A stretch of 53,175 nt of DNA from a virus (Duplodnaviria; Caudoviricetes): positions 1 to 53,175 of the IMG/VR virus record IMGVR_UViG_3300023103_000006. One strand, 5' to 3'. The notes beneath the pieces are model-generated. The model did not search any database, had not been told where the DNA came from, and saw nothing but the letters and a program-made list of their open reading frames with translations. The translations under genes and the position numbers were made by a program. Positions 29,571-41,816 of this stretch are shown piece by piece (the first letter of the stretch is position 1; every line of letters starts with the position of its first letter).

Positions 29571-30070
29571 GATTTCCTTTCATTTAAGCACTCTTCAACC
29601 ACGCTAGAAACTGCCAATGTCATTTTAGCTTTAAATGAAGCATCTTGTTTTAGCTCATTTACAACTTTGTCGAATAAGCTATCGCTACTTGAAAGCATTG
29701 AACGAGATACTTTGTGAGAAAAGGCATTAATAACAGATTGTTTAAAATCATCGGTATTGATTACCTTCGTAAAGCTGTCAGAAATAATTTGCCTTAACGA
29801 TGTAGTGTTTTCGTCAACTACTGAAATTATTAACTTATTTAGCGGGCTTTGATAGCCAGTAAGTACAGTTTTCATGGCTTCTGCTATGGATTGTTGCGCT
29901 GTAATTAGAATATCTTTTTCGAGATAAACAGGGTTATGCTTTTTTTGAATACCTTCATTCAGTTCTTTTACTGATTTGTCAGTAAACCTTTCTAGGTTTT
30001 GGTTTTTGTCTTGTAGGTCACGAACTGTTTTCTTTAGTTCGTCGAACTCGTGCTGTTCTTGTTTTGTCAT
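29567..30070 (-). CDS. Hypothetical coiled-coil protein (true start likely 30070, MTKQEQ)
   Basis: The upstream extension to 30136 lies inside structured leader A. Confidence 0.6.
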   Translation of the reverse strand: MTKQEQHEFDELKKTVRDLQDKNQNLERFTDKSVKELNEGIQKKHNPVYLEKDILITAQQSIAEAMKTVLTGYQSPLNKLIISVVDENTTSLRQIISDSFTKVINTDDFKQSVINAFSHKVSRSMLSSSDSLFDKVVNELKQDASFKAKMTLAVSSVVEECLNERKS

Positions 30071-30077
30071 TGATGTA

Positions 30078-30198
30078 AAATAAAAAATTCCTTGATTGGG
30101 GCTTGGACTTAGCAGGGGTGGATTAGACCCGTCCAAACTTTCCTATCAAGGAATTTCTCTAATATCTTTAAATCCGTTCGGCTGCTAAACCGTTGAAC
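30078..30198 (-). ncRNA. Kissing-loop leader element A
   Basis: 5' loop UUAGCAG (30182-30188) complementary to CUGCUAA (30109-30115) inside a 12-bp terminator-like stem 30085-30096/30145-30156. Confidence 0.6.
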
Positions 30199-30228
30199 AA
30201 ATATAGTAGTCATATTTTGAATTTCCAA
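30198..30228 (-). promoter_or_regulatory. Bacteroidota sigma-A-type promoter
   Basis: TTG-N20-TATATTTG. Confidence 0.7.
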
Positions 30229-30245
30229 GAATTATTTTAACTTTG
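30216..30245 (+). promoter_or_regulatory. Bacteroidota-type promoter for the membrane-gene island (divergent, overlapping)
   Basis: TTTG-N18-TAACTTTG, 4 nt before ATG 30250. Confidence 0.65.
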
Positions 30246-30249
30246 TATC

Positions 30250-30531
30250 ATGGCACGAAGAGTTGAAATATCAGAACATCTATATGTTTCACCTAGAATT
30301 TACTTTTGGTTGAAAATAGCTTGGGCTATGGCTGGAGGTATGACAGGAGTAACATTTAGTGATATGTTCCCTAAATGGGTAATGGCTGTTATGTTTCTGA
30401 TTAACTTAGGCTTTGCAGAGGTATTCAGACAAAAGGCCAAGAACGATGCACCACCAAACAGCACTTCAATTAAACAGACAGAAGTAAAACCCAATAGTAC
30501 AACAGAAACACAGATTACAACAACACCGTGA
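30250..30531 (+). CDS. 2-TM membrane protein, holin-like
   Basis: Two hydrophobic helices and a polar tail. Confidence 0.6.
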   Translation: MARRVEISEHLYVSPRIYFWLKIAWAMAGGMTGVTFSDMFPKWVMAVMFLINLGFAEVFRQKAKNDAPPNSTSIKQTEVKPNSTTETQITTTP

Positions 30532-31061
30532 GAAATTCATTTATTAAAGACTTATTTTTGAGTTTAATGGAAGATGTGGCGGCATTCATTGCTGATTTTA
30601 AAATGAATGCTTTATACATTCTATTAGGTTACATAATAGATAAGTACATTATAGGAGTTAAAAAAGCTATTCAATTCTGGTTATTTGATGAATTTACCTT
30701 TGCTACTTTCTTTATAATTATGTTGGTTTGCGATTTTCTTGCATACGTTAACAAATTAAGGACTTCAAATAAAGGAATGAGAATAAGTTTTGCGGTATCC
30801 GGTGTTAATAGATTCTTTGACAATGTAGTAAAATATGGAATAGCACTTATAGCAATTCATGGACTTTCTAAGTATAGCGTAAACGGTGTAACTAATACGT
30901 GGTTTGCAGATGCTCCCAACTGGTTTTTCGCATTTTGTATGCTAAGGGTAGCTACGAATATATTCAGGAACTTAGGGTTTGACGTTTCATTAATAATTGA
31001 CAAGATAAGCGAGAAGTTTAAGGATTTTAAAGTAAAGGATACCGACGATACAAATCAGTAA
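30528..31061 (+). CDS. Multi-TM holin-like protein
   Basis: ...LV.D.......S.G..RF..........S/TNI..NL.. pattern resembling phage holin family 4; charged C-terminus. Confidence 0.6.
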   Translation: MRNSFIKDLFLSLMEDVAAFIADFKMNALYILLGYIIDKYIIGVKKAIQFWLFDEFTFATFFIIMLVCDFLAYVNKLRTSNKGMRISFAVSGVNRFFDNVVKYGIALIAIHGLSKYSVNGVTNTWFADAPNWFFAFCMLRVATNIFRNLGFDVSLIIDKISEKFKDFKVKDTDDTNQ

Positions 31062-31079
31062 CAATTTAATCGTACATAT

Positions 31080-31280
31080 ATGGCAAACAAAAAGCAAAGA
31101 ATACTTGAAAAGATTGAAAAAATAGAGCACAATAATAGAGAAAATGACCAACTGTTAGAAGAGATTAAATCTTTATTATTGGTTGGAGGTGACTCACAAT
31201 CGCTCGATGACGGAGAAGGTGGCGCACCTCATCCGCCAACGCCTCCGCCGCCACCTCCACCGCCAGGAACAACAACATGA
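31080..31280 (+). CDS. Small protein: coiled coil plus poly-Pro C-terminus
   Basis: ...SLDDGEGGAPHPPTPPPPPPPPGTTT. Confidence 0.6.
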   Translation: MANKKQRILEKIEKIEHNNRENDQLLEEIKSLLLVGGDSQSLDDGEGGAPHPPTPPPPPPPPGTTT

Positions 31281-31633
31281 AGTACTACGTAGTTTTGGCG
31301 TTAGCTTTTGTGATATACATGGCTAACGCCTTATTTTTGGCATTCTTTTACTATGATTTTGAATGGTTAAGGTCTTTTACTTGGCTTATAGACCATCTTT
31401 GGCAAGTGATTTTACCTTTGTATATTGGTTTAAGTAGTGGGTATAAAAAAGTAAAGACAATTGCTTACTACTGGACTATATTTGCTTTATTCCGGTTTCT
31501 TTATACTACGCTTACTTACAGTTTAAAATTGCCTCTAATATCTGAAAGGTATTCTTACTTATTTATCCATTGGATTTTTATTTTTACCTTGATTTTTCTG
31601 GTTATTAAGAATCTTAGAGAACCAAAATCATAG
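31277..31633 (+). CDS. 4-TM membrane protein
   Basis: Highly hydrophobic 118 aa; ATGA-coupled to the Pro-rich ORF. Confidence 0.65.
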   Translation: MKYYVVLALAFVIYMANALFLAFFYYDFEWLRSFTWLIDHLWQVILPLYIGLSSGYKKVKTIAYYWTIFALFRFLYTTLTYSLKLPLISERYSYLFIHWIFIFTLIFLVIKNLREPKS

Positions 31634-31712
31634 GTATTTTTACGTGTTTTATTGTACGTTACTAGGAAATAACAAATTAAGTTAATACTTTCGGTTTTTA
31701 ACTTATGCTGTT

Positions 31713-31979
31713 GTGGGGAGAGTTGCCTTGAATGTAATTTTTTTGAATGTTTTAAAATGGTTAGAGCAAACTCTATTTGTTTTTCTAGTCACTTTTTACG
31801 ACTTCTTACAGGCGCAATTAGCTTTAAGCATATCAGAGAAGAAAGAACTAATATTGTTCGCCTGCGGGCTTGTTTGGGGGCTATTTCGGATAGGTAGAGA
31901 GTGGGTGAAGTTAGACCAACAGAGAATTGAAAGGGATATTAAGAAAGAGGAATTAAAAAAGTTGAAAGAAGAAGTGTAG
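31713..31979 (+). CDS. Small membrane protein, holin/antiholin-like (start uncertain)
   Basis: Hydrophobic segments and a highly charged C-terminus. Confidence 0.5.
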   Translation: MGRVALNVIFLNVLKWLEQTLFVFLVTFYDFLQAQLALSISEKKELILFACGLVWGLFRIGREWVKLDQQRIERDIKKEELKKLKEEV

Positions 31980-32026
31980 ATAGTATTTCATAGTTTTAGA
32001 TTAGGGTTGAAATTAGGTAAGTTTCG

Positions 32027-32058
32027 AAAGCATTAGATGTTATTCTAATGCTTTTTTT
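32027..32058 (+). terminator. Intrinsic terminator, probably bidirectional
   Basis: AAAGCATTAGA/TCTAATGCTTT stem plus T-tract between convergent operons. Confidence 0.75.
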
Positions 32059-32059
32059 G

Positions 32060-32266
32060 TTATAGCCCGCCATAAGCCCATTGCCCTGATTCTTCATCTT
32101 GTCTAAAGCCTATTTCTTCCAATTCCCATTCTAACTCTTTTGACATTGACCAATCGATGTCACCAATAAGTAGACATTCATATTCAAACTTAATATTTTC
32201 ATCTCCACCTTTGGGTTTTATGGATTCAATAATTTCTAATGCTCTAATTAAATTTTTTGCCTTCAT
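32060..32266 (-). CDS. Hypothetical protein
   Basis: Tiled ORF. Confidence 0.55.
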   Translation of the reverse strand: MKAKNLIRALEIIESIKPKGGDENIKFEYECLLIGDIDWSMSKELEWELEEIGFRQDEESGQWAYGGL

Positions 32267-32290
32267 TTTTCTAATTGTTTATTTGTGAAA

Positions 32291-32650
32291 TTATTTATTA
32301 GACTTCATTAGGTTATTTATTCGATGCTTCCACTCTTTGCGCTTAAGTTTATCAGACTTCCAATTACGAAAAGGTAAGATTGTTTCCATAACAACCGGAG
32401 TTAGTTCCACATTTATAATTTTGCTATGCGAAGAAACATACATAGTTAAAAGTGTTGAAAGACTAATTTCCAAACCGCTAAGTCCGTAAGATTGTGTTTC
32501 TTTCCACTTTCTATAAATCTCGACACTTTTATCGACACTTATACCAGCCCGTGCAAACTGCAATGCCTCTTCTTCAGTGCATCCTGTAATATGCATTAAG
32601 TCACAAGCTGGATTTTTTATTTCTGGTGGTAACTGATGAAAGTCTGTCAT
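32291..32650 (-). CDS. Hypothetical protein
   Basis: Coupled ORF. Confidence 0.55.
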   Translation of the reverse strand: MTDFHQLPPEIKNPACDLMHITGCTEEEALQFARAGISVDKSVEIYRKWKETQSYGLSGLEISLSTLLTMYVSSHSKIINVELTPVVMETILPFRNWKSDKLKRKEWKHRINNLMKSNK

Positions 32651-32841
32651 TTTTCTAATATTGTTTTGAGTGTTAATAATCTGTTCAGATAAGCCTCCCC
32701 ATTCTTAGGCTTCAAACTCTTTGCAAATGCAATGTGAGATGCAACAAACCGTTTTACATTCAATATATTTTCACTTTTTGAAAGTTGAATTGAATCAGGG
32801 AGGGTTGTTGAGTTGAAGAAGGTTTCGAGTTCATTTATCAC
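32647..32841 (-). CDS. Hypothetical protein
   Basis: ELETFF....LP..I.L...E.I.NV..FV.SH pattern recalled from Bacteroidota. Confidence 0.6.
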   Translation of the reverse strand: MINELETFFNSTTLPDSIQLSKSENILNVKRFVASHIAFAKSLKPKNGEAYLNRLLTLKTILEK

Positions 32842-33017
32842 GGTAGCTGAGTAAAATATTGGAACCTATAACCAATGTGGCTGAAATTAGTATTGTGCCT
32901 AATACGTACCAATCAGGGAAAATATAAGACAATAATAAAGTCCATAGTGCAATGGCTGATGCGTAATTTGCTACTCTTGACAAAGGTATATTTTTCACCT
33001 GAGTTTATATTTAAGTG

Positions 33018-33290
33018 TTATCTATCTAAAATTTTCAATATTGCGTAAAGGTCTTCTTTCGAATCTACAATCGGGAATTTTATCACAGGCATTTCATCGG
33101 TAGGCAATTGGCTGAAATGTAAAAAGTATACCAGACGCCCGCCAAAACATTCCTCTAGTATAAATATAGCTTCAAAACTTTGTCTTTGATAGTATTCATA
33201 TCCCTCGTAAATACGGCAATCATAATCTGGGTGTCTTTCTTTCATATACTCCCTAACCCATCCTTCGGCTTGCTCTTTTGATGCATACAT
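33018..33290 (-). CDS. Hypothetical protein
   Basis: Tiled ORF. Confidence 0.55.
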   Translation of the reverse strand: MYASKEQAEGWVREYMKERHPDYDCRIYEGYEYYQRQSFEAIFILEECFGGRLVYFLHFSQLPTDEMPVIKFPIVDSKEDLYAILKILDR

Positions 33291-33309
33291 GGTTATATTG
33301 CTTTATTTG

Positions 33310-33639
33310 TTAATTGGAGTTTTTAGGGTGAAAATAATGTATGTCGTCCGTCCATTCGTACGGAATTTTTATTTCATTTAAACAATTTTGTCCCCTATTC
33401 AATATTTCTCCCTTTTCCTTATCGCTGTAATCGATAATCTTATTTTTATCAACTCCGCCAAGCGAAGAGTAGCAGTTGTAAAAATAAATCCCTAAACTTT
33501 CACATTTTTTATACGCTTTCCTTAGTTCTTCAAAAGCCATTTTCTGCTTTGGAGTTAAACAAAATAATTCATCTTGTTCTGTCAATTCTTCTTTTTTAAG
33601 ATTGTCAAATTTTTTCTGCGCAAAATATTCTTTCTCCAT
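33310..33639 (-). CDS. Hypothetical protein downstream of leader B
   Basis: 109 aa ORF. Confidence 0.6.
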   Translation of the reverse strand: MEKEYFAQKKFDNLKKEELTEQDELFCLTPKQKMAFEELRKAYKKCESLGIYFYNCYSSLGGVDKNKIIDYSDKEKGEILNRGQNCLNEIKIPYEWTDDIHYFHPKNSN

Positions 33640-33647
33640 ATTAATAT

Positions 33648-33760
33648 AAAATAAAAAAGCCTTTACAAAATAAAGGCGACTACTCCCTTACTCATAAAGG
33701 CTGTGGTATGTTAATACCAAAATCTTTTCTTACAGGTAGTCGTTTCTGTAAGTATTGAAC
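33648..33760 (-). ncRNA. Kissing-loop leader element B
   Basis: P1 CUUACAG/CUGUAAG with loop CGACUAC (33736-33742), complementary to GUAGUCG (33677-33683) in the loop of terminator stem 33658-33702. Confidence 0.65.
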
Positions 33761-33761
33761 A

Positions 33762-33792
33762 CAAATATACTAAAAAACTACTTAACTTTCAA
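33762..33792 (-). promoter_or_regulatory. Bacteroidota sigma-A-type promoter
   Basis: TTG-N20-TATATTTG. Confidence 0.7.
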
Positions 33793-33926
33793 TAAATAAT
33801 TTTGAATAGTTAAAATCGGACGATTTAAGCTAAAAGCAATTATCTTAGGTGTGAAGTTCAACTGCTTATAGTATTCTATCATTCGTTTTTCGTCCGTGTT
33901 CAGATGGTGTGCTTTGCTTTCGATTA

Positions 33927-34097
33927 TCATGGGGTTAGGAGGGATTGTAGATCTTTGATGAATTTTTCATGTTTAAAAATTTCCAAATTTAACTTATTCC
34001 TAGTATCGCTACCCATAATATACGTATCCCGTTCATTCACTAGATTGTCCTTCTCTTTTTGATACCTCTCAATCAGTTTTTGTATTTTCTCTTTCAT
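33927..34097 (-). CDS. Hypothetical protein (likely start MKEKIQ)
   Basis: A-rich initiation region at 34097. Confidence 0.5.
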   Translation of the reverse strand: MKEKIQKLIERYQKEKDNLVNERDTYIMGSDTRNKLNLEIFKHEKFIKDLQSLLTP

Positions 34098-34114
34098 CTT
34101 ATTTTTTTGTTTAA

Positions 34115-34381
34115 TTAGGATAGTAGTGCTATCCAGAAGTGTTTTATTGAGTAATCTAATCTTGAAATGTTTACCCATTCATCAAAGTACAGTAGTTGAA
34201 TTACTTTATCTACGACTAGAAAACGTAGTCTGTTTTTCACTCTCTTGTCGGCACTTAATGAAATGTTGACAAAGAAAAAATCAATGCCCCCTTTATTGCT
34301 ATGCTCAATCTCGTAAGAACTAGTTACAAATTCCCCTAACTCTTCATCAAGAAGCTGTTTTAATCTATCATAGTGTTTCAT
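34115..34381 (-). CDS. Hypothetical protein
   Basis: Tiled ORF. Confidence 0.55.
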   Translation of the reverse strand: MKHYDRLKQLLDEELGEFVTSSYEIEHSNKGGIDFFFVNISLSADKRVKNRLRFLVVDKVIQLLYFDEWVNISRLDYSIKHFWIALLS

Positions 34382-34433
34382 TGTATTAAATCTTTAAATT
34401 TTGAATAACTTTTCTTGTTTAATAATTGGGTTA

Positions 34434-34946
34434 TTACGGCTTAAATATTGAATCCATGCCCATTTTAATTTTACAATCACCTTTATAGCCTTTTTGAAAA
34501 TGAAAGTTTCCTACACTAAAACCAAATGGAAAATCTATCAACTGACCACTTCCATAGATAATCATACTTTTAATGCCCCCGTATTTATTTATCAGATTCA
34601 TGATAATCTGTCTTTGAAAAATTTTATTGGTTGGTACAAGATAGCTGACATTGTCAGCTATCTCAAAACCTTTTCTAAGGAACTCTTCAAAAATAGAGTA
34701 AGGAGGATTTCCAATAACCCAGTCAATCTTTTTATTGTAATCGAAAAAATCTTTGCCTTCTCTTATTTCACAATAATCAGACCCATCAGGTAGGTAATCG
34801 TAAAAGGCTCCGTCTCCCTTACATGGGTCTAAACAAGTGCCTGTGGGATTTAAAAAACTAATTATGTGTTTACTAACTGCGATTGGAGTAAAAACTATAT
34901 CTGCAGGAAGAACTGGTTTATCAAATGCTTCTAGTTGTACGTTCAT
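34434..34946 (-). CDS. Orphan DNA amino-methyltransferase (N6-A/N4-C)
   Basis: LDPCKGDG motif I and IGNPPYS motif IV. Confidence 0.8.
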   Translation of the reverse strand: MNVQLEAFDKPVLPADIVFTPIAVSKHIISFLNPTGTCLDPCKGDGAFYDYLPDGSDYCEIREGKDFFDYNKKIDWVIGNPPYSIFEEFLRKGFEIADNVSYLVPTNKIFQRQIIMNLINKYGGIKSMIIYGSGQLIDFPFGFSVGNFHFQKGYKGDCKIKMGMDSIFKP

Positions 34947-35209
34947 TTTTGACCTTCTATTAATTCAAATCGTTGATTAAATTCTTCTTCCGTTTTAAAA
35001 GAAGCATGAAAAGGTTCTTGTTGTGTCCTTTTTACTGAACTGTCAGGTTGCGATTCTATTCTTCCTAACTCTGTGAAAATCTGGTACCCGTTGCCAATCG
35101 CAAACTTATGAATTTGGCATTGTAGAATTAACCCAGCCTTCAGATTAAACTTAGGCTCATCTTGCAACAGTCTGACTGTTGCAAACTCATTTGATTGTGT
35201 TGTTTTCAT
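34943..35209 (-). CDS. Hypothetical protein
   Basis: Coupled ORF. Confidence 0.55.
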   Translation of the reverse strand: MKTTQSNEFATVRLLQDEPKFNLKAGLILQCQIHKFAIGNGYQIFTELGRIESQPDSSVKRTQQEPFHASFKTEEEFNQRFELIEGQK

Positions 35210-35241
35210 ATTATTTATTTTGTTTTCTGATTCCGGTAAGG

Positions 35242-35478
35242 TTAATTATTTGGCACAAGTAAAACTTCAATTGGTTGTATTAATTCTATGTCTCCATAAT
35301 CAACAATAAAACCAAACTTAGTTCTTCCATTTGATAGCATCCCCCTGTGATGTGCCGCTCCTTTTACTACTTTCCCTTTGTAGTATTGACCATTGCCGTT
35401 TTTATAAACCACCACATCTCCTATTTTTATCGACTTTGGTGTTTGATACTCTTTGGGGTTAATTTTTATCCAAGCCAT
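35242..35478 (-). CDS. Hypothetical SH3/Tudor-like protein
   Basis: KIGDVV...YKGKVV...VDYGD pattern. Confidence 0.5.
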   Translation of the reverse strand: MAWIKINPKEYQTPKSIKIGDVVVYKNGNGQYYKGKVVKGAAHHRGMLSNGRTKFGFIVDYGDIELIQPIEVLLVPNN

Positions 35479-35483
35479 TTTCT

Positions 35484-35687
35484 TTAATTATTGAAATGAT
35501 TATAAAGAGTTAATATTTTGTTTTGAATGTGCTTTACCGTTTCGGTGGTGAATGGTACGGTTTCTGATTTGATTACCTGGTTGTTTTCGTACAGTTCTAT
35601 TTTTACATCTGTCTTACCTGTCAATGTAGACTTAACGTCATATTTTGAACGGATTAGCCATGTTAGAGCTTTGTTGTAATCATTCAT
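35484..35687 (-). CDS. Hypothetical protein
   Basis: Tiled ORF. Confidence 0.55.
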   Translation of the reverse strand: MNDYNKALTWLIRSKYDVKSTLTGKTDVKIELYENNQVIKSETVPFTTETVKHIQNKILTLYNHFNN

Positions 35688-35916
35688 TTTTAACTAATGT
35701 TTTCATGCCGTGCTTTTCTAATTCGTTGATTCTGAATTTCTGAATTTCTGATAGACAACCTTTTTCAGACTTTACCTCTACAAAAAACGCTTCACCATTT
35801 TTACAAACCAATAAATCCGGAATACCATTTTTGTTTGATTTTATAATTTTCAACACAAAATATCCTTCTGCTTCATACTGCTTGATAATCTTTGACTGTA
35901 TTTTGCTTTCTAACAT
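35680..35916 (-). CDS. VRR-NUC domain nuclease
   Basis: ES.IQ...GIPDL......FVEVK...G.LS..Q motif. Confidence 0.85.
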   Translation of the reverse strand: MLESKIQSKIIKQYEAEGYFVLKIIKSNKNGIPDLLVCKNGEAFFVEVKSEKGCLSEIQKFRINELEKHGMKTLVKNE

Positions 35917-37147
35917 AATTATTGAAATGTGAAAGTGTAAAATCCTGTTTGTTCAATACTTTCTGATAAATCTCATGCTCAATACCATGTTCAGAGAATA
36001 CCCAATAGATTTGATTTCTTAACCTTTCCTTTGTCGTCATTCTATCCCTGGACTGCCAAAACGAAACTGCGCTGAAGTCGATATTTAGGTATACGATATA
36101 TTTAGCGGCACTTAGATTTATCCCCTCTCTCCCAGATACAATTTGCAAGGCAATATTTTTGGTAGTTGAATTAAATTCCTCTAAGGATTCGCAAATATTG
36201 TTGCCAAACACCTGCTTAAGCATTTGTAATTCAGCTTTGAATTTATAGAATATTGCTATCTTTTCATGCTTGAATCGTTCTTTAATTAAATCAGCTTTAG
36301 AGGTATCTATTACCTGGAAATTACCTGATTCAAAAATTACGGTACCGGAGCATAATTGGTGAATTTTGTTCATTAATTTCACTGCCGTATCCGCTAATAT
36401 TGTTTCTTTTTTGCCTTCTATAACACGATGTGTTTTTAGTCTTTCGCATAGGTCAATCGTTAGTTCTGACATTTGACAGGTAAGAACTTCCTGCTCAATA
36501 ACAGACGTAAACCCGGCTTCTTGTTGGGTGAATCTGATAAAATATCTATCGGTGAATTTAATTATTTCTTCTTGCTTTGCTTCTGAATAATCATTAATCG
36601 GAGCATACCCAAAGTTTAATACCTTTACATTCACAAACACTTTAGCCCATTTATAAAAATTTACATAATCACGAAACGGGCTTACATTACTTATCCACAT
36701 TTGGTGATAAATTTGTGAATAACTTTCAGGGGTTGGTGTGCCTGACAAAAGTATCATAGGTAATTTTGAGTACCGTTCTTTGATAAGTTTGGCGGCAAGG
36801 CATGGTTTAGGAAATGCTGAAAGTCTATGCGCTTCATCTATAATCACTAAATCAAACTCCAATGTAATCAGGTGTAATGATTCGTAATTAATTACTGTCA
36901 AATCAAACTGATAATTCATTGCGTCATAGTCTTTCTGAATGCTTGAAATAGCTTTCTTCTTAGTTATGAATAAAACCCTTTTAGCCTTGTAAATATTAGC
37001 GGTTTCTAAAGCCATCAATGTCTTGCCAACACGGACTTCGCACGCCAAATAAACTATTTTAAAGTTTATCAATTTCACAGACGCTTCATTAGCTATTTTT
37101 ATTTGATAGTCTCGTAAAATCATGTTTTTCGTAGTCATATGTTGCAA
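35873..37147 (-). CDS. SF2 (SNF2-like) helicase; likely start at MILRDYQ
   Basis: LRDYQ, GKT, DEAH, LSGTP, GINL and QSRDR motifs. Confidence 0.88.
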   Translation of the reverse strand: MQHMTTKNMILRDYQIKIANEASVKLINFKIVYLACEVRVGKTLMALETANIYKAKRVLFITKKKAISSIQKDYDAMNYQFDLTVINYESLHLITLEFDLVIIDEAHRLSAFPKPCLAAKLIKERYSKLPMILLSGTPTPESYSQIYHQMWISNVSPFRDYVNFYKWAKVFVNVKVLNFGYAPINDYSEAKQEEIIKFTDRYFIRFTQQEAGFTSVIEQEVLTCQMSELTIDLCERLKTHRVIEGKKETILADTAVKLMNKIHQLCSGTVIFESGNFQVIDTSKADLIKERFKHEKIAIFYKFKAELQMLKQVFGNNICESLEEFNSTTKNIALQIVSGREGINLSAAKYIVYLNIDFSAVSFWQSRDRMTTKERLRNQIYWVFSEHGIEHEIYQKVLNKQDFTLSHFNNYVRKQNTVKDYQAV

Positions 37148-37331
37148 TGATATGCCAAAGATAGTCGTATGGGGTCAATCCGGACTGATTAAAGTCTTCA
37201 CTTTTTAAAACATCTATAATTTTAAAGGAAGAAAATATTAACGGGTCTTCTTTTGCTAGTTTTGTGTCAAAATTATCAATATGCTCGCAAAATGCTTTAT
37301 ATTCTTCTTCTTCAGAAAGGAATTTCTTCAT
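37089..37331 (-). CDS. Hypothetical protein
   Basis: Between primase and helicase. Confidence 0.5.
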   Translation of the reverse strand: MKKFLSEEEEYKAFCEHIDNFDTKLAKEDPLIFSSFKIIDVLKSEDFNQSGLTPYDYLWHIIATYDYEKHDFTRLSNKNS

Positions 37332-39684
37332 CGTCTTTTGGTTTTTCGTTATTAATAATTACTTCTGATGTTCTAATCTCAAACCACCTCACACCCTGTG
37401 TATTACCTTGTAATAACTCAAACCCTTTTAATTTGCAATACTTATCCATCCACTCTAAAAACTTCCTTTGACTTAAATTATTTTTCTTAAAATCTGGGTA
37501 TTCAGTAATAAAGTTGTTGAAATATTCTCCTTTACCATTTCTTACATTTCTTGGAAAGTTTGTAGTTTCTTCTATCCACTCAAAAAACTCATCACCGCTA
37601 CCTGCTAAGAACTTCCTAATTTTTATATTCTTTGCCTCTTGCACTATTAACCCTGTATTTAAATAACTTTGAAGGCAAAAAATCATATAATTATCAAAAC
37701 ATAAATAATCTTCTCTACTCCAATCATCAAACAATTGCCTTTTAAAGTCGTCTTCCGGCGTTCTCTTTGCTCCGTAATATTGGGCAAATTCTAATTCAAA
37801 ACGCCTTCTATCATGACTATTACCCTCTCCCTTGATAGCGTAATTGGTGCTTATTACAATCTTTGGACTATCACTAACGCTTTGTTTTATGGCGTCCTTA
37901 TTTTTTCGCTCTAAAGTTATTCCCTCGGTAACCAAGCTAAATTTATTTTCAAAACTAAAATTCTTAACTACATCGTCAAACACTAAAACCTGTGTATCTT
38001 CACTAACAGTTTGATAAGGGAATGATTTCTTGTCATCAAACGTTTTCCCATCTAAAACAGCTACTCTTCTTATCTGCTGTATTCCCTGTATAAATACTCC
38101 TTTGCCTGTTCCACCTTCAGGGTTTTGACTTATCACTTCATCATTCAAAATGATAGCCATGTTATTCATTTTATTTTTATAGGTACTCAAAAGATAGCCT
38201 ATAACGCTTTCCATTGCCTGAGGCTTACCGTCTGACACATTAAAAATAAAGGACTTATAGTCATTATCAATGATAGGATTAATTTTAAAATCTCTGTCAA
38301 TTATCTGTCTTTTCCATATGTAACTATCTATATCTATAAAATCAACTAACTTTACAGATTCCTTTGTGACCTCTAAAATACCATTATTGTAAGCTATAAA
38401 TGAGGACTCTTTTTTATCTTTTAGCATTAATAATTCAATGGTATCAATCATTAGCAAATAACTCTCCGTAAACATAGTAGTCTGCTTTGCGCAATAATTC
38501 CATATATCTATTTCTTTTCTGGTTTCAAGATACATCAAAACAAAATCTTTAATTTTCTCTACACTGGTTTGCGTGACTTTATTTGATTCAATATAAAGAA
38601 AAACTGGCTGCTCTGAATTTTCTGGATAGTACTTTCTGAATCCATGCCTCTCTAAAAATATCTTGTATTTAAACGGATTAATTGTTGTTTTTTTTACGCC
38701 TTTCTTATCGGTTATCGTGTCCCAGAAATCGTCATGGTCTACATCTTCCTTTATCTCATTGTAAATATTTTCGCTTATTTGAAATTTTTGCAAAATCTCT
38801 TCTTTGGGTTTCCTAATATCTCTTTTGATTAGAAGTATTTTTTCATTATCTTCAAAATATCTAGAGTTAAAAACCCTATCCCCGTATGAACTTTTAATTG
38901 TTCTTATAGTTTCTGCCTCTGAGAAATCCCCTATCACTACATTATTGTAAATATATCCTATTGCAGTTTCAATCTCAATCCCATATTCGCAAAACCAATT
39001 AGCTAAAACATAAATATTGTTATTTCTTTTTCCATTAACAAAACCATATTTTCCATCCCACATTTTCATTATTTTGTCAATAATTTTCGCCTCTTCCCTT
39101 AGTGGTAAAACTGGTATTTTTTCAGCGTACATGTGTCCTTGCTCTTCTGCCTTTTCGTCAAAGATAATAGCATTGGCATTATAATAAATATTAGGGTCGT
39201 AACCTTCAAAACATACCCTGTCAACATTACAATTCTTTTCGTCGAAATACTCTATTTTAAATTTTCTATGAAACCCTTTAAAATATAAAGGATGTGTCTC
39301 CTTGTCTGCTAAAGGAATTTTTATAACAGCCTTTATTCCATTACCGGAGGGTGAACGAAAACAAATTATTACATGAGGATTAGAAGTGATTTTTAAAAAC
39401 ATTTCCTCTAATTCGGTTTCTGGTATTTTATCAAAATCAAGCACACATAAGCCAGAATGCTGAACCAAAGAATTTCCATTCCTCTCTTTAAACTCTCCAG
39501 CAAATAAAATACAAGGCAATTCGTTTTTTAACCTAACTCTTTCGGCATCATTTTGGGCAACACGTATTAGTTTTATTAAATCCTTAGAGTTTCCATCTCT
39601 TATCCTTTCTACCACCTTTTCAAGTGGAACATTAAACGAAACATCTTTGGATTTATATAAACTCTTAAATATCGAAACTATCAT
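37312..39684 (-). CDS. Primase-helicase (BT4734/VirE N-terminal-like domain plus P-loop helicase)
   Basis: HSGLCVLDFD and SPSGNGIK N-terminal motifs; GGTGKG Walker A; VLVFDD Walker B; ISTNY; RRRF. Confidence 0.85.
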   Translation of the reverse strand: MIVSIFKSLYKSKDVSFNVPLEKVVERIRDGNSKDLIKLIRVAQNDAERVRLKNELPCILFAGEFKERNGNSLVQHSGLCVLDFDKIPETELEEMFLKITSNPHVIICFRSPSGNGIKAVIKIPLADKETHPLYFKGFHRKFKIEYFDEKNCNVDRVCFEGYDPNIYYNANAIIFDEKAEEQGHMYAEKIPVLPLREEAKIIDKIMKMWDGKYGFVNGKRNNNIYVLANWFCEYGIEIETAIGYIYNNVVIGDFSEAETIRTIKSSYGDRVFNSRYFEDNEKILLIKRDIRKPKEEILQKFQISENIYNEIKEDVDHDDFWDTITDKKGVKKTTINPFKYKIFLERHGFRKYYPENSEQPVFLYIESNKVTQTSVEKIKDFVLMYLETRKEIDIWNYCAKQTTMFTESYLLMIDTIELLMLKDKKESSFIAYNNGILEVTKESVKLVDFIDIDSYIWKRQIIDRDFKINPIIDNDYKSFIFNVSDGKPQAMESVIGYLLSTYKNKMNNMAIILNDEVISQNPEGGTGKGVFIQGIQQIRRVAVLDGKTFDDKKSFPYQTVSEDTQVLVFDDVVKNFSFENKFSLVTEGITLERKNKDAIKQSVSDSPKIVISTNYAIKGEGNSHDRRRFELEFAQYYGAKRTPEDDFKRQLFDDWSREDYLCFDNYMIFCLQSYLNTGLIVQEAKNIKIRKFLAGSGDEFFEWIEETTNFPRNVRNGKGEYFNNFITEYPDFKKNNLSQRKFLEWMDKYCKLKGFELLQGNTQGVRWFEIRTSEVIINNEKPKDDEEIPF

Positions 39685-39720
39685 AACTTCAAACGGTTTG
39701 TAATTTTATAAGAAAAAAAA

Positions 39721-39876
39721 TCATTTTAAGCAAATCAGCTTTTTTTCTAAAATAAGCTCAGAATCTACTTTCTTTTGGTCAATCCAAGTATAGACAGTTT
39801 TTAAAGACCTATTCATGAGAGAGGCATAGTCTTTTGGGGTCATATATGTTTTACCGTTTATATATATTTTATTCAT
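39721..39876 (-). CDS. Small HTH DNA-binding protein (51 aa)
   Basis: MTPKDYASLMNRSLKTVYTWI, an excisionase/MerR-like HTH; below the ORF-track cutoff. Confidence 0.65.
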   Translation of the reverse strand: MNKIYINGKTYMTPKDYASLMNRSLKTVYTWIDQKKVDSELILEKKLICLK

Positions 39877-39900
39877 TTGTTAATAACTAAATTTCTACTG

Positions 39901-39933
39901 CAAATATAGTAAAATATAATTCATAACTACAAA
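39901..39933 (-). promoter_or_regulatory. Promoter for the replication operon
   Basis: TTTG-N21-TATATTTG. Confidence 0.7.
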
Positions 39934-39949
39934 CAATTTGAATAATATT

Positions 39950-40165
39950 TTTTCGCAACACGCAACGCAACACATACCCCTATATACTACTGTGTAGAAA
40001 AAAAAGATTATTTTATTTGTACCCCCATCATTTTTTTAGAAAACAATGTGTTGCTACGTTGCGTATAAGTAAAAAGTAGCTCTAAATCAATGTATATAAA
40101 AGAATTTTCAAAAACACATATACAAATAAAGTGTTGCGCTGCAACAGATTAAAGTGTTGCGTAAA
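39950..40165. repeat. Putative replication origin with GCAAC(A)/(T)GTTGC iterons
   Basis: Clusters at ~39955-39974, 40048-40063, 40131-40146 and 40153-40161 in non-coding AT-rich DNA between divergent replication genes. Confidence 0.6.
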
Positions 40166-40182
40166 TATTTTTATTCAAACCG

Positions 40183-40213
40183 TTTGTAGATGTAGTTTTT
40201 ATTATTATCTTTA
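40183..40213 (+). promoter_or_regulatory. Promoter for the SSB-like gene
   Basis: TTTG-N19-TATCTTTA (one mismatch to consensus). Confidence 0.55.
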
Positions 40214-40268
40214 CATACTCAATAATGAGTAATCATGCCAATATACGGCACTTAACAAATTCAATATC

Positions 40269-40916
40269 ATGGCAATAAACGCTAGTGCGGGGAGTTCTAC
40301 CCCTAGAGAATTAATACCTGCGGGTATGTATGTAGCAAGATGTTACAAAATGGTTTACTTAGGAATGATTGAAGAAGAAACCCAATGGGGGCTAAAGAAA
40401 ATGCCTAAGGTAATAATTACCTGGGAGTTGCCCAATGAGAAAAAATCGTTTAAAGAGGGTGAAGAGCCAAAGCCTTTAGTAATTTCAATGGAGTTTACCC
40501 TATCTTTGGCCGACAAAGCTAAATTAAGAAACTATCTAAACTCATGGAGAGGTAAGCCGTTTACTGATGCGGAGGCTAAAAAGTTTGACATTACTAAATT
40601 ATTGGGTCAACCTTGTTTATTGAATATCACGCATAATACCGGAAAAAAAGACCCATCAAAAACTTATGAGTTTATTGCCACGATAACACCCTTGATGAAA
40701 GGTCAAGAGTGTCCGGCACAAATTAACGAAACTTTTGAGTTCAACTTTGAGGAGGCATTTAGTTGGGAGAAGTTTAATTCTTTCCCTGATTTTATTAAAG
40801 ATAAAATTAAAAAATCTGATGAGTACGGTAAATTAGAGGTTCCGGCATCTAACCCCGCCACTGGCGTTGTTTCTACTGAGAACACAGCTACTCCAGACAT
40901 AGCCGTGCCATTCTAA
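40269..40916 (+). CDS. Phage ssDNA-binding-like replication protein
   Basis: PAG.YVARC...LG; K.KLR..L.SWRG..F...E...FD...LLG.PC; C-terminal ...VPF tail. Confidence 0.7.
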   Translation: MAINASAGSSTPRELIPAGMYVARCYKMVYLGMIEEETQWGLKKMPKVIITWELPNEKKSFKEGEEPKPLVISMEFTLSLADKAKLRNYLNSWRGKPFTDAEAKKFDITKLLGQPCLLNITHNTGKKDPSKTYEFIATITPLMKGQECPAQINETFEFNFEEAFSWEKFNSFPDFIKDKIKKSDEYGKLEVPASNPATGVVSTENTATPDIAVPF

Positions 40917-40932
40917 CAATTGTCACTAACTC

Positions 40933-40966
40933 AATAGCTGGCATAGTAATGTGTCAGCTATTTTTA
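40933..40966 (+). terminator. Intrinsic terminator after the SSB-like gene
   Basis: ATAGCTGGCAT...GTGTCAGCTAT stem plus T-tract. Confidence 0.7.
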
Positions 40967-40973
40967 TATACTT

Positions 40974-41426
40974 ATGGAACAAAATATTGAGAAGATAGAT
41001 TTTAAAAATTTATCTAAAGAATCTCTTTTGTGTTTGGTTGATGCAAACCTTCAATTATGGGCTGATAATGGTCAGGACAAACTAGGTTTTCATGCTATTA
41101 TTTGTAAAGCTGAATTATTTTTTAGCGAGCTGAAGAAAAAATTAGCTAAAACCTTGATTGATGAATTGGCGAAAAATAATAATTCTACGCATAATGGCGT
41201 AGTATTGTCTCTGTCAAATGGTAGTTCTTACGATTACTCAAACAGCCCGGCATGGATTGAAGTGAATGGAAGAATTGAGGTGATTAAAGAAGATTTAAAA
41301 GCTATTGAAGCGATAGCAAAAGTAACTAAAACCAGGAGTGAATGGACAGACAAAGACGGTGAATGTTATGTTATTTATCCGGCAGTATCAAAAAGCGCAG
41401 AAACGGTAAAGGCTACAATTAAGTAG
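40974..41426 (+). CDS. Hypothetical protein
   Basis: 150 aa; YDYS...W motif. Confidence 0.6.
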   Translation: MEQNIEKIDFKNLSKESLLCLVDANLQLWADNGQDKLGFHAIICKAELFFSELKKKLAKTLIDELAKNNNSTHNGVVLSLSNGSSYDYSNSPAWIEVNGRIEVIKEDLKAIEAIAKVTKTRSEWTDKDGECYVIYPAVSKSAETVKATIK

Positions 41427-41664
41427 CGTTTAAATCTCTTTTAGTTACTAATTTGTACAAACTTTTAAGTTCTTCTACTGTTTCTATACGGATATTATCA
41501 GAACCATAATACCATGAGCCTGCAACAAATCCATGTTCTGTAACTTTGCAAATACTTATACCTAATTTAACATCGTGTTTAACATAACTTACCCAATCTT
41601 TAGTGCCAGTTCTGCAAGGCGTAAACCCATAAACTGTAATATTATCTTCGGTTAATTTTTCCAT
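41419..41664 (-). CDS. Hypothetical protein downstream of leader C
   Basis: 81 aa ORF. Confidence 0.6.
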   Translation of the reverse strand: MEKLTEDNITVYGFTPCRTGTKDWVSYVKHDVKLGISICKVTEHGFVAGSWYYGSDNIRIETVEELKSLYKLVTKRDLNAT

Positions 41665-41677
41665 TTTAGATAGTTTT

Positions 41678-41775
41678 AAAATAATAATGCCCCAAATACC
41701 TGCTTAGCTTCTGACGTCTAAACAAAATAGATGAGGCAAAAATCTTAATGGCAGTATAGTCAGAAGTGCCAATGA
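41678..41775 (-). ncRNA. Kissing-loop leader element C
   Basis: P1 UGGCA/UGCCA with loop CUUCUGAC (41759-41766), complementary to GUCAGAAG (41708-41715) in the loop of long stem 41688-41738. Confidence 0.6.
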
Positions 41776-41776
41776 T

Positions 41777-41807
41777 TAAATATAGTAAGAAATTATGTAA
41801 AAAGCAA
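41777..41807 (-). promoter_or_regulatory. Bacteroidota-type promoter
   Basis: TTG-N20-TATATTTA (one mismatch). Confidence 0.6.
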
Positions 41808-41816
41808 GTTATAGTA

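What the first reader, a model, noticed from the sequence alone, without database searches (positions are those of the whole stretch)
30078..41807. Three orthogonal kissing-loop/terminator leader RNAs: candidate new cis-regulatory RNA class
Seen: three minus-strand intergenic regions (A 30078-30228, B 33648-33792, C 41678-41807) share little primary sequence but have the same layout. In order: a TTG-N20-TATATTT[G/A] promoter; a short 5' hairpin P1 right after the predicted start site; a linker containing AAGAU; a long hairpin followed by a U-rich tract; an AUG 10-25 nt later. In each, the P1 loop is the exact reverse complement of an unpaired segment in the long hairpin: UUAGCAG/CUGCUAA (A), CGACUAC/GUAGUCG (B), CUUCUGAC/GUCAGAAG (C). 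The three pairs differ completely, which amounts to covariation within one genome. G-U pairs in B and C form only on the transcribed strand. Inference: an attenuator/riboswitch-like device in which loop-loop pairing controls termination, or short terminated pseudoknotted RNAs acting in trans (e.g. protein decoys, by analogy with pseudoknotted type III antitoxin RNAs). I do not recognise it as a named family.
Basis: partly seen in the sequence, partly recalled or inferred. Interest (0 to 1): 0.9.

Follow-up and report, generated by a model that had tools for sequence, protein, structure and literature searches.

The report
Phage leader RNAs with kissing terminators
Three short leader RNAs of this phage, and dozens in related phages, pair the very start of the transcript with the loop of a terminator hairpin just ahead of the gene; this design matches no catalogued RNA family and probably gates early gene expression.

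Summary
All three minus-strand regions carry TTG-N20-TATATTT[G/A], a 5' hairpin, an AAGAU linker, a hairpin plus U tract and an AUG. The loop complements are exact: 7, 7 and 8 nt.

It is not chance. In 122 related loci plus the window, terminator loops complement their own upstream 97 nt in 64 of 1239 cases on the gene strand, against 49 of 6190 mismatched pairs. The opposite strand shows none (9 of 1745 vs 48 of 8721). I found 48 promoter-linked modules with 32 different words. Homologous subfamilies keep their flanks while the words covary.

Rfam 15 gives no hit. A Flavobacterium chromosome sample and the nearest GenBank phage lack the module.

The transcript's 5' terminus, in a P1 loop or naked, pairs with the apical loop of a promoter-proximal intrinsic terminator.

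Best reading (about 0.45): a cis-acting attenuator that limits expression of early genes (primase and homing endonucleases in relatives). Function is inferred; no RNA data exist. Rivals are trans-acting short RNAs and a 5' UTR stabiliser.

The parts
30198..30228 (-). Leader A promoter: TTG (30228-30226), 20-nt spacer, TATATTTG (30205-30198). It overlaps a divergent plus-strand promoter-like site at 30217-30245.
   Evidence: the same consensus is enriched in two Flavobacterium MAGs
30176..30198 (-). Leader A 5' hairpin P1 (weak: CGG/CCG plus GUU/AAC). Its loop holds the word UUAGCAG at 30188-30182.
30164..30168 (-). Leader A linker motif AAGAU
30085..30156 (-). Leader A long terminator-type hairpin. 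The complementary word CUGCUAA lies at 30115-30109, 3' of an inner small hairpin.
30077..30087 (-). Leader A U tract, followed by AUG at 30070-30068 (ORF 29567-30070, 167 aa, no family assigned)
33762..33792 (-). Leader B promoter: TTG (33792-33790), 20-nt spacer, TATATTTG (33769-33762)
33729..33752 (-). Leader B hairpin P1 (7 bp, 10-nt loop) with the word CGACUAC at 33742-33736, flush with the 3' side of the loop
33705..33726 (-). Leader B linker: AAGAU (33726-33722) and an optional middle hairpin (33718-33705)
   Evidence: middle hairpins also occur in relatives
33658..33702 (-). Leader B terminator hairpin. The apical loop holds GUAGUCG at 33683-33677. A compact alternative terminator at 33677-33659 uses the same 3' arm.
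33648..33658 (-). Leader B U tract, followed by AUG at 33639-33637 (ORF 33310-33639, 109 aa)
41777..41807 (-). Leader C promoter: TTG (41807-41805), 20-nt spacer, TATATTTA (41784-41777). It starts 10 nt after the stop of the upstream methyltransferase ORF (41817-42287).
41749..41771 (-). Leader C hairpin P1 (5 bp, 13-nt loop) with the word CUUCUGAC at 41766-41759
41742..41746 (-). Leader C linker motif AAGAU
   Evidence: the same UAAGAUUUU linker occurs in the look-alike module of L062/L063
41689..41737 (-). Leader C terminator hairpin (basal stem with one G-U pair, internal loop, 7-bp apical stem). The apical loop holds GUCAGAAG at 41715-41708.
41678..41688 (-). Leader C U-rich tract, followed by AUG at 41664-41662 (ORF 41419-41664, 81 aa)

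Best explanation
These are members of a phage-specific family of 5' leader modules. Each module reads: host-type (Bacteroidota sigma-A consensus) promoter; a 5'-terminal element; an A/U-rich linker of 16-39 nt; an intrinsic terminator hairpin; then an AUG 10-30 nt later. The 5'-terminal element is a short hairpin P1 that starts at about +1, or in one subfamily the naked first 8-10 nt. The terminator has a basal stem, a small purine-rich internal loop, a 4-6 bp apical stem and an apical loop of mostly 8-10 nt, followed by a U tract. The apical loop pairs by 7-10 Watson-Crick pairs with the 5' element.

Proposed mechanism: a cis-acting promoter-proximal attenuator. Every polymerase that starts at the module's promoter, or reads in from upstream, meets the terminator before the first codon. 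The 5' element is made first. It captures the loop word as soon as that word emerges and stacks on the weak apical stem. This nucleates and locks the terminator, so most transcripts end as a compact RNA of about 65-125 nt. The genes behind the module are then expressed only by read-through. Read-through would be either a constant small leak or a gate opened by a factor not yet identified.

Shown: the sequence anatomy, the conservation, the covariation of the pairing, the restriction to phages in my samples, and the position before start codons.

Inferred: transcription from these promoters, actual termination, and the direction of the kiss's effect.
For: Anatomy of the three window leaders.

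Recurrence and covariation:
- Promoter-anchored test that did not use complementarity: 15 of 60 cognate pairs reach a complement of 7 nt or more, against 21 of 3540 non-cognate pairs on the gene strand, and 0 of 63 on the other strand.
- Terminator-anchored test: 64 of 1239 cognate against 49 of 6190 non-cognate.
- 48 unique promoter-linked modules carry 32 distinct words of 7-9 nt, with duplex energies of -6.9 to -16.1 kcal/mol.
- Subfamily alignment A4: the pseudoknot helix is paired in 100% of cells, 3 of its 7 pairs change on both sides, and the whole structure is 95.4% paired against 78.5% in shuffles (0 of 500 shuffles as high) and 34-48% when slid.
- L060 and L053 differ by two compensated changes in the word helix and by nothing in the aligned linker core and the rest of the hairpin.

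Kissing-type loop geometry: the loop word is flush with or overlaps the 3' side of the loop in 37 of 46 modules. It has 0-2 unpaired bases on the 5' side in 44 of 46, and 30 of those 46 unpaired bases are A.

Terminator features: 5-7 T in the 8 nt after the stem, and hairpin energy of -9.3 to -25.9 kcal/mol. The T tract was a selection criterion for that set.

Position: the word starts 4-17 nt after the -7 box, and an ATG follows 10-30 nt after the stem.

Leader A sits in a divergent intergenic region, so I see no other promoter for the genes behind it. Terminator A must therefore be passable (inference).

Downstream genes in relatives are ones where low or gated expression is plausible. 8 of 39 distinct downstream ORFs are NUMOD4/HNH_3 or GIY-YIG endonucleases above Pfam cut-offs, and 16 of 39 are the primase. 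The primase count is biased, because the loci were fetched around primase genes.
Against: - No transcript data. The only sequencing runs found are two DNA runs, so start sites, termination and read-through are all unproven.
- In leader B a compact 7-bp hairpin using the same 3' arm and U tract could terminate without any kiss. The kiss may therefore serve the finished RNA rather than termination.
- No conserved antiterminator alternative was found, and no factor was identified. The only candidate is a 51-aa ORF with a sub-threshold HTH_17 match (20.1 bits against a cut-off of 27). It has a homologue in only 1 of the 144 loci searched.
- The loop word sits about 16 base-pair steps from the U tract, so a direct steric effect on polymerase is unlikely (inference).
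- Between close relatives the words change while the surrounding hairpin core stays invariant. This would fit a specificity (trans) function at least as well as a purely structural cis role.
Confidence: 0.45

Rival explanations
1. The product is the short terminated RNA itself, a stable compact small RNA acting in trans. The variable words would be specificity determinants. One possibility is immunity-, incompatibility- or exclusion-like cross-talk between co-infecting relatives, by loop-loop contact with nascent leaders. Another is that the A/U-rich linker is held out as a seed. Downstream genes would be served by leak-through.
For: - The words differ between close relatives while the hairpin core is invariant.
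- Modules within one genome carry different words: three in the window, and 2-4 in each of L028, L033, L036, L045 and L050.
- The loop geometry resembles that of fast-pairing antisense loops (the comparison is recalled).
- In B termination does not need the kiss.
- Both RNA ends are buried in structure.
Against: - The cis partner is at very high local concentration, so it should outcompete any trans partner.
- The module always lies 10-30 nt before a start codon. A free-standing small RNA gene would not need that.
- No target was identified, and 7-mers are uninformative in a 53-kb genome.
- No opposite-strand promoter-like site lies inside the three leaders.
Confidence: 0.2
2. It is mainly a 5' UTR stabiliser and insulator for the full-length mRNA. 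Pairing the first nucleotides protects the 5' end from end-dependent decay, either inside P1 or directly to the hairpin loop. The compact fold keeps the A/U-rich start region open. The hairpin plus U tract would terminate poorly, or only incidentally.
For: - The 5' element starts at about +1 in the modules: the median P1 start is 4 nt after the -7 box, and in the P1-less subfamily the word starts 3-5 nt after it.
- Bacteroidota start regions are A/U-rich and lack Shine-Dalgarno pairing (recalled).
- An AUG follows closely in all 48 modules.
Against: - A simple 5' hairpin would be enough for end protection, so the conserved kiss to the terminator loop is left unexplained.
- G/C-rich stem bases directly abutting runs of 5-7 U are the signature of intrinsic terminators.
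Confidence: 0.15
3. The fold is a recognition tag for processive antitermination, in the manner of nut, put, Q or AlpA systems. A phage or host factor would recognise the shape (kissing stack, purine-rich internal loop, A-rich linker) or the promoter, and would make polymerase resistant to this and later terminators.
For: - The layout of a promoter with an intrinsic terminator just downstream is the one described for AlpA (abstracts of PMC9371919 and PMC7969949).
- The internal loop and linker core are invariant within a subfamily.
- A small HTH_17-like ORF heads the primase operon in the window.
Against: - The HTH_17 match is below the Pfam cut-off, and homologues occur in only 1 of the 144 loci searched.
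- The internal loops differ between subfamilies, so a single shared protein site is doubtful.
- Known Q and AlpA units need no RNA pseudoknot (recalled).
Confidence: 0.1
4. It is a riboswitch: a small-molecule sensor whose pocket is built by the pseudoknot, the internal loop and the linker.
For: - The tertiary architecture is compact, and the internal loop and linker are invariant within a subfamily.
- Terminator-embedded aptamers exist (abstract of PMC6478431).
Against: - No nucleotides are conserved across the family. Internal loops vary (UGAA/GGAU, UGAU/UGAU, UUU/UUU, GGA/GAA, or none), and the pairing words are hypervariable.
- Downstream genes are functionally unrelated.
- No alternative structure is conserved.
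Confidence: 0.04
5. It is a DNA-level element (nested inverted repeats serving as protein sites, recombination sites or homing targets), or simply chance.
For: - Inverted repeats are strand-symmetric by nature.
- Some modules sit beside homing endonuclease genes.
Against: - The crossing (ABA'B') arrangement recurs with different sequences.
- The modules have a fixed orientation relative to the promoter, the U tract and the downstream gene.
- The transcribed strand folds slightly better than its complement: 28 of 48 modules, mean -20.25 against -18.75 kcal/mol, Wilcoxon p 0.015.
- The non-cognate controls exclude chance.
Confidence: 0.03

Closest known systems
Intrinsic (Rho-independent) terminators used as promoter-proximal attenuators
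   Same: A G/C-based hairpin is followed directly by a U tract, placed between the promoter and the first codon.
   Different: Classical attenuators switch between terminator and antiterminator stems. Here no conserved alternative stem was found. Instead the terminator's apical loop pairs with the transcript's 5' terminus.
Cobalamin riboswitch kissing loop between the aptamer loop and the loop of the expression-platform hairpin (recalled)
   Same: A loop-loop kiss onto the loop of the regulatory hairpin is the structural link between an upstream element and the expression platform.
   Different: That kiss has conserved sequence and depends on a ligand-binding aptamer. Here there is no aptamer, the words are hypervariable, and Rfam models give no hit.
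Bacillus subtilis pyrG attenuation, where extra G residues added at the transcript's 5' end pair with the terminator (recalled; one search listed only secondary papers)
   Same: The extreme 5' end of the nascent RNA pairs with the downstream terminator hairpin of the same leader.
   Different: In pyrG the 5' end pairs with the terminator's stem strand and prevents termination. Here it pairs with the loop, which is compatible with the stem.
Lambda PR'-tR'/Q and Pseudomonas AlpA antitermination units (abstracts of PMC9371919 and PMC7969949; the lambda part is recalled)
   Same: A promoter is followed at short distance by an intrinsic terminator, so that downstream genes need read-through and a short RNA is the default product.
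   Different: Those units rely on a DNA-loaded protein and have no 5'-end-to-loop RNA pairing. No convincing factor was found here.
Phage P4 CI RNA and P1/P7 c4 RNA; ColE1 RNA I/II and pT181-type antisense attenuation (recalled)
   Same: Short complementary words presented in hairpin loops decide premature termination or gene silencing. Specificity words diverge between relatives.
   Different: Those act through a processed RNA or a countertranscript in trans. The Rfam C4 model is not matched, no opposite-strand promoter-like site lies in the leaders, and here both partners sit on one short transcript.
Pistol self-cleaving ribozyme (recalled anatomy)
   Same: A 5' hairpin's loop forms a pseudoknot of about 6 bp with a downstream unpaired segment, followed by an A-rich linker. 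It is often found in phages.
   Different: In pistol the partner lies in an internal loop 5' of a third hairpin, and conserved core nucleotides and a cleavage site exist. Here the partner is the apical loop of a terminator, or in A lies 3' of a small hairpin. No Rfam hit appears even at E up to 10.
Unnamed candidate structured RNAs catalogued from IMG/VR (PMC10690425; passages read)
   Same: That catalogue reports 1241 of 8495 phage candidates containing Rho-independent terminators, and 879 lying upstream of genes. Some could be subfamilies of this motif.
   Different: The main text does not mention primase, kissing loops, or any pseudoknot other than the T4 gene 32 one.

Membership tests
Any Rfam 15 family | Score at or above the family's gathering threshold in cmscan | tested here: not met
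   There were 0 hits in the whole window. There were 0 hits in 133,825 nt of nine related loci, where my scans place about 18 modules. At E up to 10 there were 8 weak hits in 29900-42000, none overlapping the three leaders.
Kissing-loop / loop-to-5'-end pseudoknot RNA (structural class) | Watson-Crick complement of at least 6-7 nt between a hairpin loop and a second loop or terminus, kept by compensatory change in homologues | tested here: met
   (7 of 7 pairs always paired, 3 pairs with changes on both sides). There are 32 distinct words in 48 modules.
Intrinsic terminator | Stable hairpin with G/C-rich base directly followed by a U tract | tested here: met
   Sequence criteria only; termination itself cannot be tested with these tools.
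Bacteroidota sigma-A type promoter | TTG, a 19-21 nt spacer, TAnnTTTG (consensus recalled) | tested here: met
   All three leaders have a 20-nt spacer. The pattern occurs 52 and 35 times in two Flavobacterium MAGs, against 9 and 1 for the reversed control. Start sites were not mapped.
Pistol ribozyme | Match to the pistol covariance model; pseudoknot partner in the internal loop 5' of P3; conserved core and cleavage site | tested here: not met
   There is no Rfam match even at E up to 10. The partner lies in the apical loop (B, C and 47 of 48 modules), or 3' of the inner hairpin in A.
Type III antitoxin RNA (ToxI-like) | Tandem direct repeats of about 36 nt before a terminator and an endoribonuclease toxin gene | tested here: not met
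   Tandem Repeats Finder found nothing in the three leaders. The downstream ORFs have no significant family hit of any kind.
Countertranscript (antisense) attenuation, ColE1/pT181 type | A promoter on the opposite strand that makes an RNA complementary to the leader | tested here: not met
   No plus-strand TTG-N18-22-TAnnTTT[AG] site lies inside 30078-30198, 33648-33762 or 41678-41777. The plus-strand site at 30217-30245 points away from leader A. This is a consensus scan only.
Riboswitch | Nucleotides conserved across the family that could line a ligand pocket; mutually exclusive expression-platform folds | tested here: not met
   The internal loops differ between subfamilies, the words are hypervariable, and the candidate alternative pairing is not maintained. 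Ligand binding cannot be tested here.
Q/AlpA-type antitermination unit | Promoter-proximal terminator plus a cognate DNA-loaded antiterminator protein | tested here: inconclusive
   The terminator layout is met. The only candidate protein is a 51-aa ORF (39724-39876, minus strand) with a sub-threshold HTH_17 match. Its homologue occurs in 1 of the 144 loci searched.

The most novel reading that the evidence does not exclude
The 7-10 nt words are address codes. Each promoter-proximal terminator would be licensed or locked only by the 5' end of its own transcript. This would give these phages a set of orthogonal, fast-evolving, RNA-programmed transcription gates. The abundant short RNAs might add immunity-like cross-talk between co-infecting relatives. 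Such a self-addressed lock on intrinsic termination would be a natural programmable device with no described precedent that I could find.
Probability: 0.2. Interest if true: 0.9.

Novelty: new variant of a known kind. Interest (0 to 1): 0.75.

Why it matters
If the reading holds, a whole clade of Flavobacteriia phages places a small RNA device in front of many early genes, including the replication primase and free-standing homing endonucleases. In this device the first nucleotides of a transcript dock into the loop of the terminator that ends it.

This would add a new way of tuning intrinsic termination. It would not work through competing stems. It would work through a tertiary kiss whose sequence is free to vary.

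Because the words are interchangeable, the natural set of at least 32 word pairs would be a ready-made library of orthogonal parts for Bacteroidota synthetic biology.

It would also give a handle on temporal gene control in environmental Bacteroidota phages, which to my knowledge is little studied. It may also bear on how selfish endonuclease genes are kept at tolerable expression.

Tried and rejected
Searches for relatives:
- A near-identity search of GenBank phages with 13.5 kb found no match.
- A distant search with leader A found only one 25-nt chance hit.
- Single-protein scans of IMG/VR with the three downstream ORFs and the primase gave nothing useful. An alignment of 25 primases was needed.

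Detectors that did not work:
- My first hairpin-pair detectors were too permissive. They gave thousands of hits, or equal counts on both strands. I replaced them with the promoter-anchored and terminator-anchored tests with non-cognate controls.
- A first selection from 130-nt MFE folds kept too few candidates.

Alignments:
- MAFFT alignment across subfamilies (A2) and of subfamily 1 (A3) was out of register at the words. The count of structure pairs was therefore run only on A4, and subfamily 1 was segmented by script.
- No covariance model was built. The pseudoknot cannot be modelled that way, and primary conservation across subfamilies is low.

Other checks:
- Other intergenic regions of the window show no further module.
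- Sequencing runs: 2 runs were listed, both DNA (coded X1 and X2). No RNA holder was listed, and read laying was not used.
- The AlpA-like antiterminator idea remains a lead only.
- A linker-to-5'-arm antiterminator pairing in subfamily 1 is rejected, because L050 and L058 lose it.
- The purine-rich loop words of subfamily 1 resemble Shine-Dalgarno sequences, but other subfamilies do not, so I dropped that idea.
- Literature searches found no description of this architecture. The supplementary tables of PMC10690425 could not be seen.

Full report
**What the window is.** The window is the whole record held for this genome: one 53,175-bp virus contig.
- It encodes a BT4734-like/VirE-type primase (37312-39684, minus strand) and an SNF2-type helicase.
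- The nearest GenBank phage, MW202828.1, shares only 40.6% primase identity.
- More than 1000 metagenomic primases lie at about 55-61% identity.
- The best genome-collection matches are contigs binned into Flavobacterium or Flavobacteriaceae MAGs. The host is therefore probably a member of the Flavobacteriia; this is an inference.
- The window has no tRNA.

**Observation check.**
- Each has TTG, 20 nt, then TATATTT[G/A].
- A hairpin starts a few bases later.
- The linker contains AAGAU.
- A long hairpin is followed by a U-rich tract, then an AUG.
- The complementary words are exact: UUAGCAG/CUGCUAA in A, CGACUAC/GUAGUCG in B and CUUCUGAC/GUCAGAAG in C.
- RNAfold leaves these words unpaired and gives folds more stable than shuffles: z -4.1, -3.6 and -2.2.

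Two details differ from the description.
- In A the downstream word lies 3' of a small inner hairpin rather than in an apical loop. P1 of A is also weak.
- In B the sequence GCCUUUA occurs twice. The 3' arm can therefore close either the long hairpin that displays the word or a compact 7-bp terminator.

Within this one AT-rich genome a loop-loop complement of 7 nt or more is not rare. 46 of 5306 sliding windows reach it, mostly with A/T-only words. The three copies alone would be suggestive, not conclusive.

**Known families.**
- Rfam 15 gives no hit at gathering thresholds in the window.
- It gives no hit at E up to 10 inside the three leaders.
- It gives no hit in 133,825 nt of nine related loci, where my scans place about 18 modules.
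- There are no tandem repeats in the leaders.

**Relatives.** An alignment of 25 primases retrieved 80 IMG/VR loci and 42 loci from genome collections. All are oriented with the primase on the plus strand, which corresponds to the window's minus strand. I ran three tests on these loci.

- *Test 1, promoter-anchored with loop complementarity scored directly.* I folded the 130 nt after every promoter-like site. A loop-loop complement of 7 nt or more appeared at 16 of 539 sites on the gene strand and 2 of 468 on the other strand.
- *Test 2, promoter-anchored, candidates chosen without using complementarity.* I kept sites with a small first hairpin and a last hairpin abutting a T tract. On the gene strand 15 of 60 cognate pairs reach 7 nt or more, against 21 of 3540 non-cognate pairs. 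On the other strand the figures are 0 of 63 and 43 of 3906. Several low-scoring candidates were true modules that the MFE had misfolded.
- *Test 3, terminator-anchored and promoter-independent.* Among 3004 terminator-like hairpins, I asked for a complement of 7 nt or more, with at least 3 G/C, between an unpaired run of the hairpin and its own upstream 97 nt. On the gene strand this occurs in 64 of 1239 cases, against 49 of 6190 mismatched pairs. On the other strand it occurs in 9 of 1745, against 48 of 8721.

After de-duplication 51 hits remain. Several of these have no promoter and look like chance; one of them overlaps what looks to me like a tRNA T-arm. 48 unique sequences are promoter-linked, and they carry 32 distinct words.

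**Anatomy of the family**.

| Feature | Observed range |
|---|---|
| Word length | 7-9 nt by the exact-match criterion, up to 10 in L053 |
| Word start | 4-17 nt after the -7 box (median 10) |
| Word end to terminator base | 16-39 nt of A/U-rich linker, sometimes with a small middle hairpin as in leader B |
| Terminator basal stem | about 7-9 bp |
| Terminator internal loop | often a symmetric 3x3 or 4x4 loop (UGAA/GGAU, UGAU/UGAU, GGA/GAA, UUU/UUU) |
| Terminator apical stem | 4-6 bp |
| Apical loop | 5-12 nt (median 8) |
| After the stem | 5-7 T in the next 8 nt (a selection criterion for this set) |
| ATG | 10-30 nt after the stem (median 17) |

- The complement lies in the apical loop in 47 of 48 modules.
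- It is flush with the 3' side of the loop, or overlaps it by one base, in 37 of 46 modules.
- It is preceded by 0-2 unpaired bases in 44 of 46, and 30 of those 46 unpaired bases are A.
- Most P1 loops show the same arrangement on inspection of the module list. This is the geometry expected of true loop-loop kisses; that comparison is recalled.

**Covariation in homologous subfamilies.**
- *Subfamily 2* (six sequences, alignment A4). The four helices are 95.4% paired, against 78.5% in column shuffles (0 of 500 as high) and 34-48% when slid by 1-3 columns. The pseudoknot helix is paired in all cells, and 3 of its 7 pairs change on both sides.
- *Subfamily 1* (ten sequences before primase genes). 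The hairpin core and the 3' half of the linker are nearly invariant, yet the word pair takes eight forms.
- In subfamily 1 there is no P1. The word begins 3-5 nt after the -7 box, which by the recalled promoter geometry is at or next to the first transcribed nucleotide.
- L060 and L053 differ by two compensated changes in the word helix and by nothing in the aligned linker core and the rest of the hairpin.
- Leader C resembles the L062/L063 module in loop, linker and hairpin layout, with the first two word positions changed on both sides. Leader A's loop resembles that of L066.

The conserved principle is therefore that the 5' terminus of the transcript, either in a P1 loop or naked, pairs with the apical loop of a promoter-proximal terminator.

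**Distribution.**
- Convincing modules were found only in the closer relatives, at roughly 52-60% primase identity. One lies in L084, a contig binned into a Flavobacteriaceae MAG.
- The only hits in the loci at about 40% identity are L091 and L104. Both lack a promoter and look like chance.
- MW202828.1 gave 0 hits among 88 terminator-like hairpins.
- 400 kb of a Flavobacterium MAG chromosome gave 5 of 953 cognate hits against 44 of 4759 non-cognate. None of the 5 has the module layout.
- The promoter consensus itself is of host type. It occurs 52 and 35 times in two Flavobacterium MAGs, against 9 and 1 for the reversed control.
- The transcribed strand folds slightly better than its complement: 28 of 48 modules, mean -20.25 against -18.75 kcal/mol, p 0.015. 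82 of 949 predicted pairs are G-U.

**Context.**
- In the window, leader A lies in a divergent intergenic region. I see no other promoter for the run of small genes behind it, so its terminator must be passable (inference).
- Leaders B and C sit between co-directional genes.
- In relatives I found 39 distinct downstream ORFs. 16 are the primase, which is biased because the loci were fetched around primases.
- 6 are NUMOD4 plus HNH_3 endonucleases, 2 are GIY-YIG endonucleases and 1 is a C-5 cytosine methylase, all above the Pfam cut-offs. The rest are mostly small ORFs that I did not identify.
- Five of the six subfamily-2 modules precede a homing-endonuclease gene confirmed by Pfam. For the sixth (L033, locus coordinate 14743) no ORF could be called.
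- The three window ORFs behind the leaders have no assignable family and no homologue in the loci.

**Mechanism.** What is shown is a conserved, covarying RNA fold with a host-type promoter in front and an intrinsic-terminator signature behind, immediately before start codons. I commit to a cis-acting promoter-proximal attenuator (about 0.45).
- The 5' element is made first. It captures the loop word as it emerges and stacks on the weak apical stem.
- This locks the terminator, so most transcripts end as a compact short RNA.
- Downstream genes then depend on leak or on gated read-through.

The points against this reading are substantial.
- There are no RNA data.
- In B a compact alternative hairpin could terminate without the kiss.
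- No antiterminator fold is conserved.
- No factor was identified. The HTH_17-like 51-aa ORF is sub-threshold and rare.
- The words change between close relatives while the core does not, which suits a specificity function.

The rivals are:
- a trans-acting, self-addressed small RNA (0.2);
- a 5' UTR stabiliser or insulator (0.15);
- a recognition tag for processive antitermination (0.1), with the AlpA layout as precedent (abstracts);
- a riboswitch (0.04);
- a DNA-level element or chance (0.03).

**Comparison with known systems.** By logic the module resembles several known systems: the cobalamin riboswitch kiss onto the expression-platform loop, pyrG 5'-end-to-terminator pairing, lambda Q and AlpA promoter-proximal terminators, and P4 CI or plasmid antisense kissing control. 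All of these are recalled except AlpA. It meets the membership criteria of none of them (see the membership table).
- Literature searches found no description of a 5'-end or P1 kiss onto a terminator loop in phages.
- A catalogue of about 8,500 unnamed IMG/VR structured-RNA candidates exists (PMC10690425; passages read). It may contain subfamilies of this motif, but I could not see its supplements.

**Verdict.** This is a real RNA motif family, specific to phages in my samples, and not in Rfam. I rate it a new variant of a known kind (leader/attenuator RNAs), with interest 0.75.

Noticed in passing
window 48406-48421 and 49068-49083: A 16-bp palindrome, CTAGGATAT[A/G]TCCTAG, occurs twice (0.05 expected by chance). 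Each copy lies next to a TATATTTG promoter box (48390-48397 minus, 49133-49140 plus). The two copies flank a 112-aa ORF and a 58-aa ORF with a weak Cro/C1-type HTH match. They are a candidate operator pair at the early/late divergence.
   Followed up: partly
window 39954-39973 (minus) and 40131-40161 (plus): GTGTTGCG occurs four times (0.54 expected) in the 585-bp intergenic region upstream of the promoter of the HTH-plus-primase operon (39901-39932). That promoter has no leader module. The same word precedes primase promoters in relatives L026, L027 and L032. It is a candidate operator or origin iteron.
   Followed up: partly
window 30198-30250: Leader A's promoter overlaps a divergent plus-strand promoter-like site (TTG 30217 to TAACTTTG 30245). 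The ATG of that site's gene (30250) lies only 4 nt after the -7 box, which suggests a leaderless or nearly leaderless mRNA.
   Followed up: no
window 39724-39876 (minus): A 51-aa ORF is the first gene of the primase operon. It has a sub-threshold HTH_17 match (20.1 bits, cut-off 27). In many relatives a leader module occupies this position between promoter and primase. A homologue was found only in L002.
   Followed up: partly
L066, L072, L028, L033, L036, L050, L023, L044 (related loci): Free-standing homing endonuclease genes sit directly behind leader modules: six NUMOD4 plus HNH_3 genes and two GIY-YIG genes. Endonucleases of two unrelated families share the same subfamily-2 leader.
   Followed up: partly
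window 33659-33702 (minus): In leader B, GCCUUUA is duplicated. Two alternative hairpins therefore share one 3' arm and one U tract. One is long and displays the kissing word; the other is a compact 7-bp terminator.
   Followed up: partly
window 32026-32055: A 12-bp hairpin with T runs on both strands lies between the convergent plus-strand block (30250-31979) and the minus-strand block ending at 32060. It is probably a bidirectional terminator. A weak sub-threshold Rfam FopS match overlaps it (31983-32061, 25.2 bits against a gathering score of 56).
   Followed up: no
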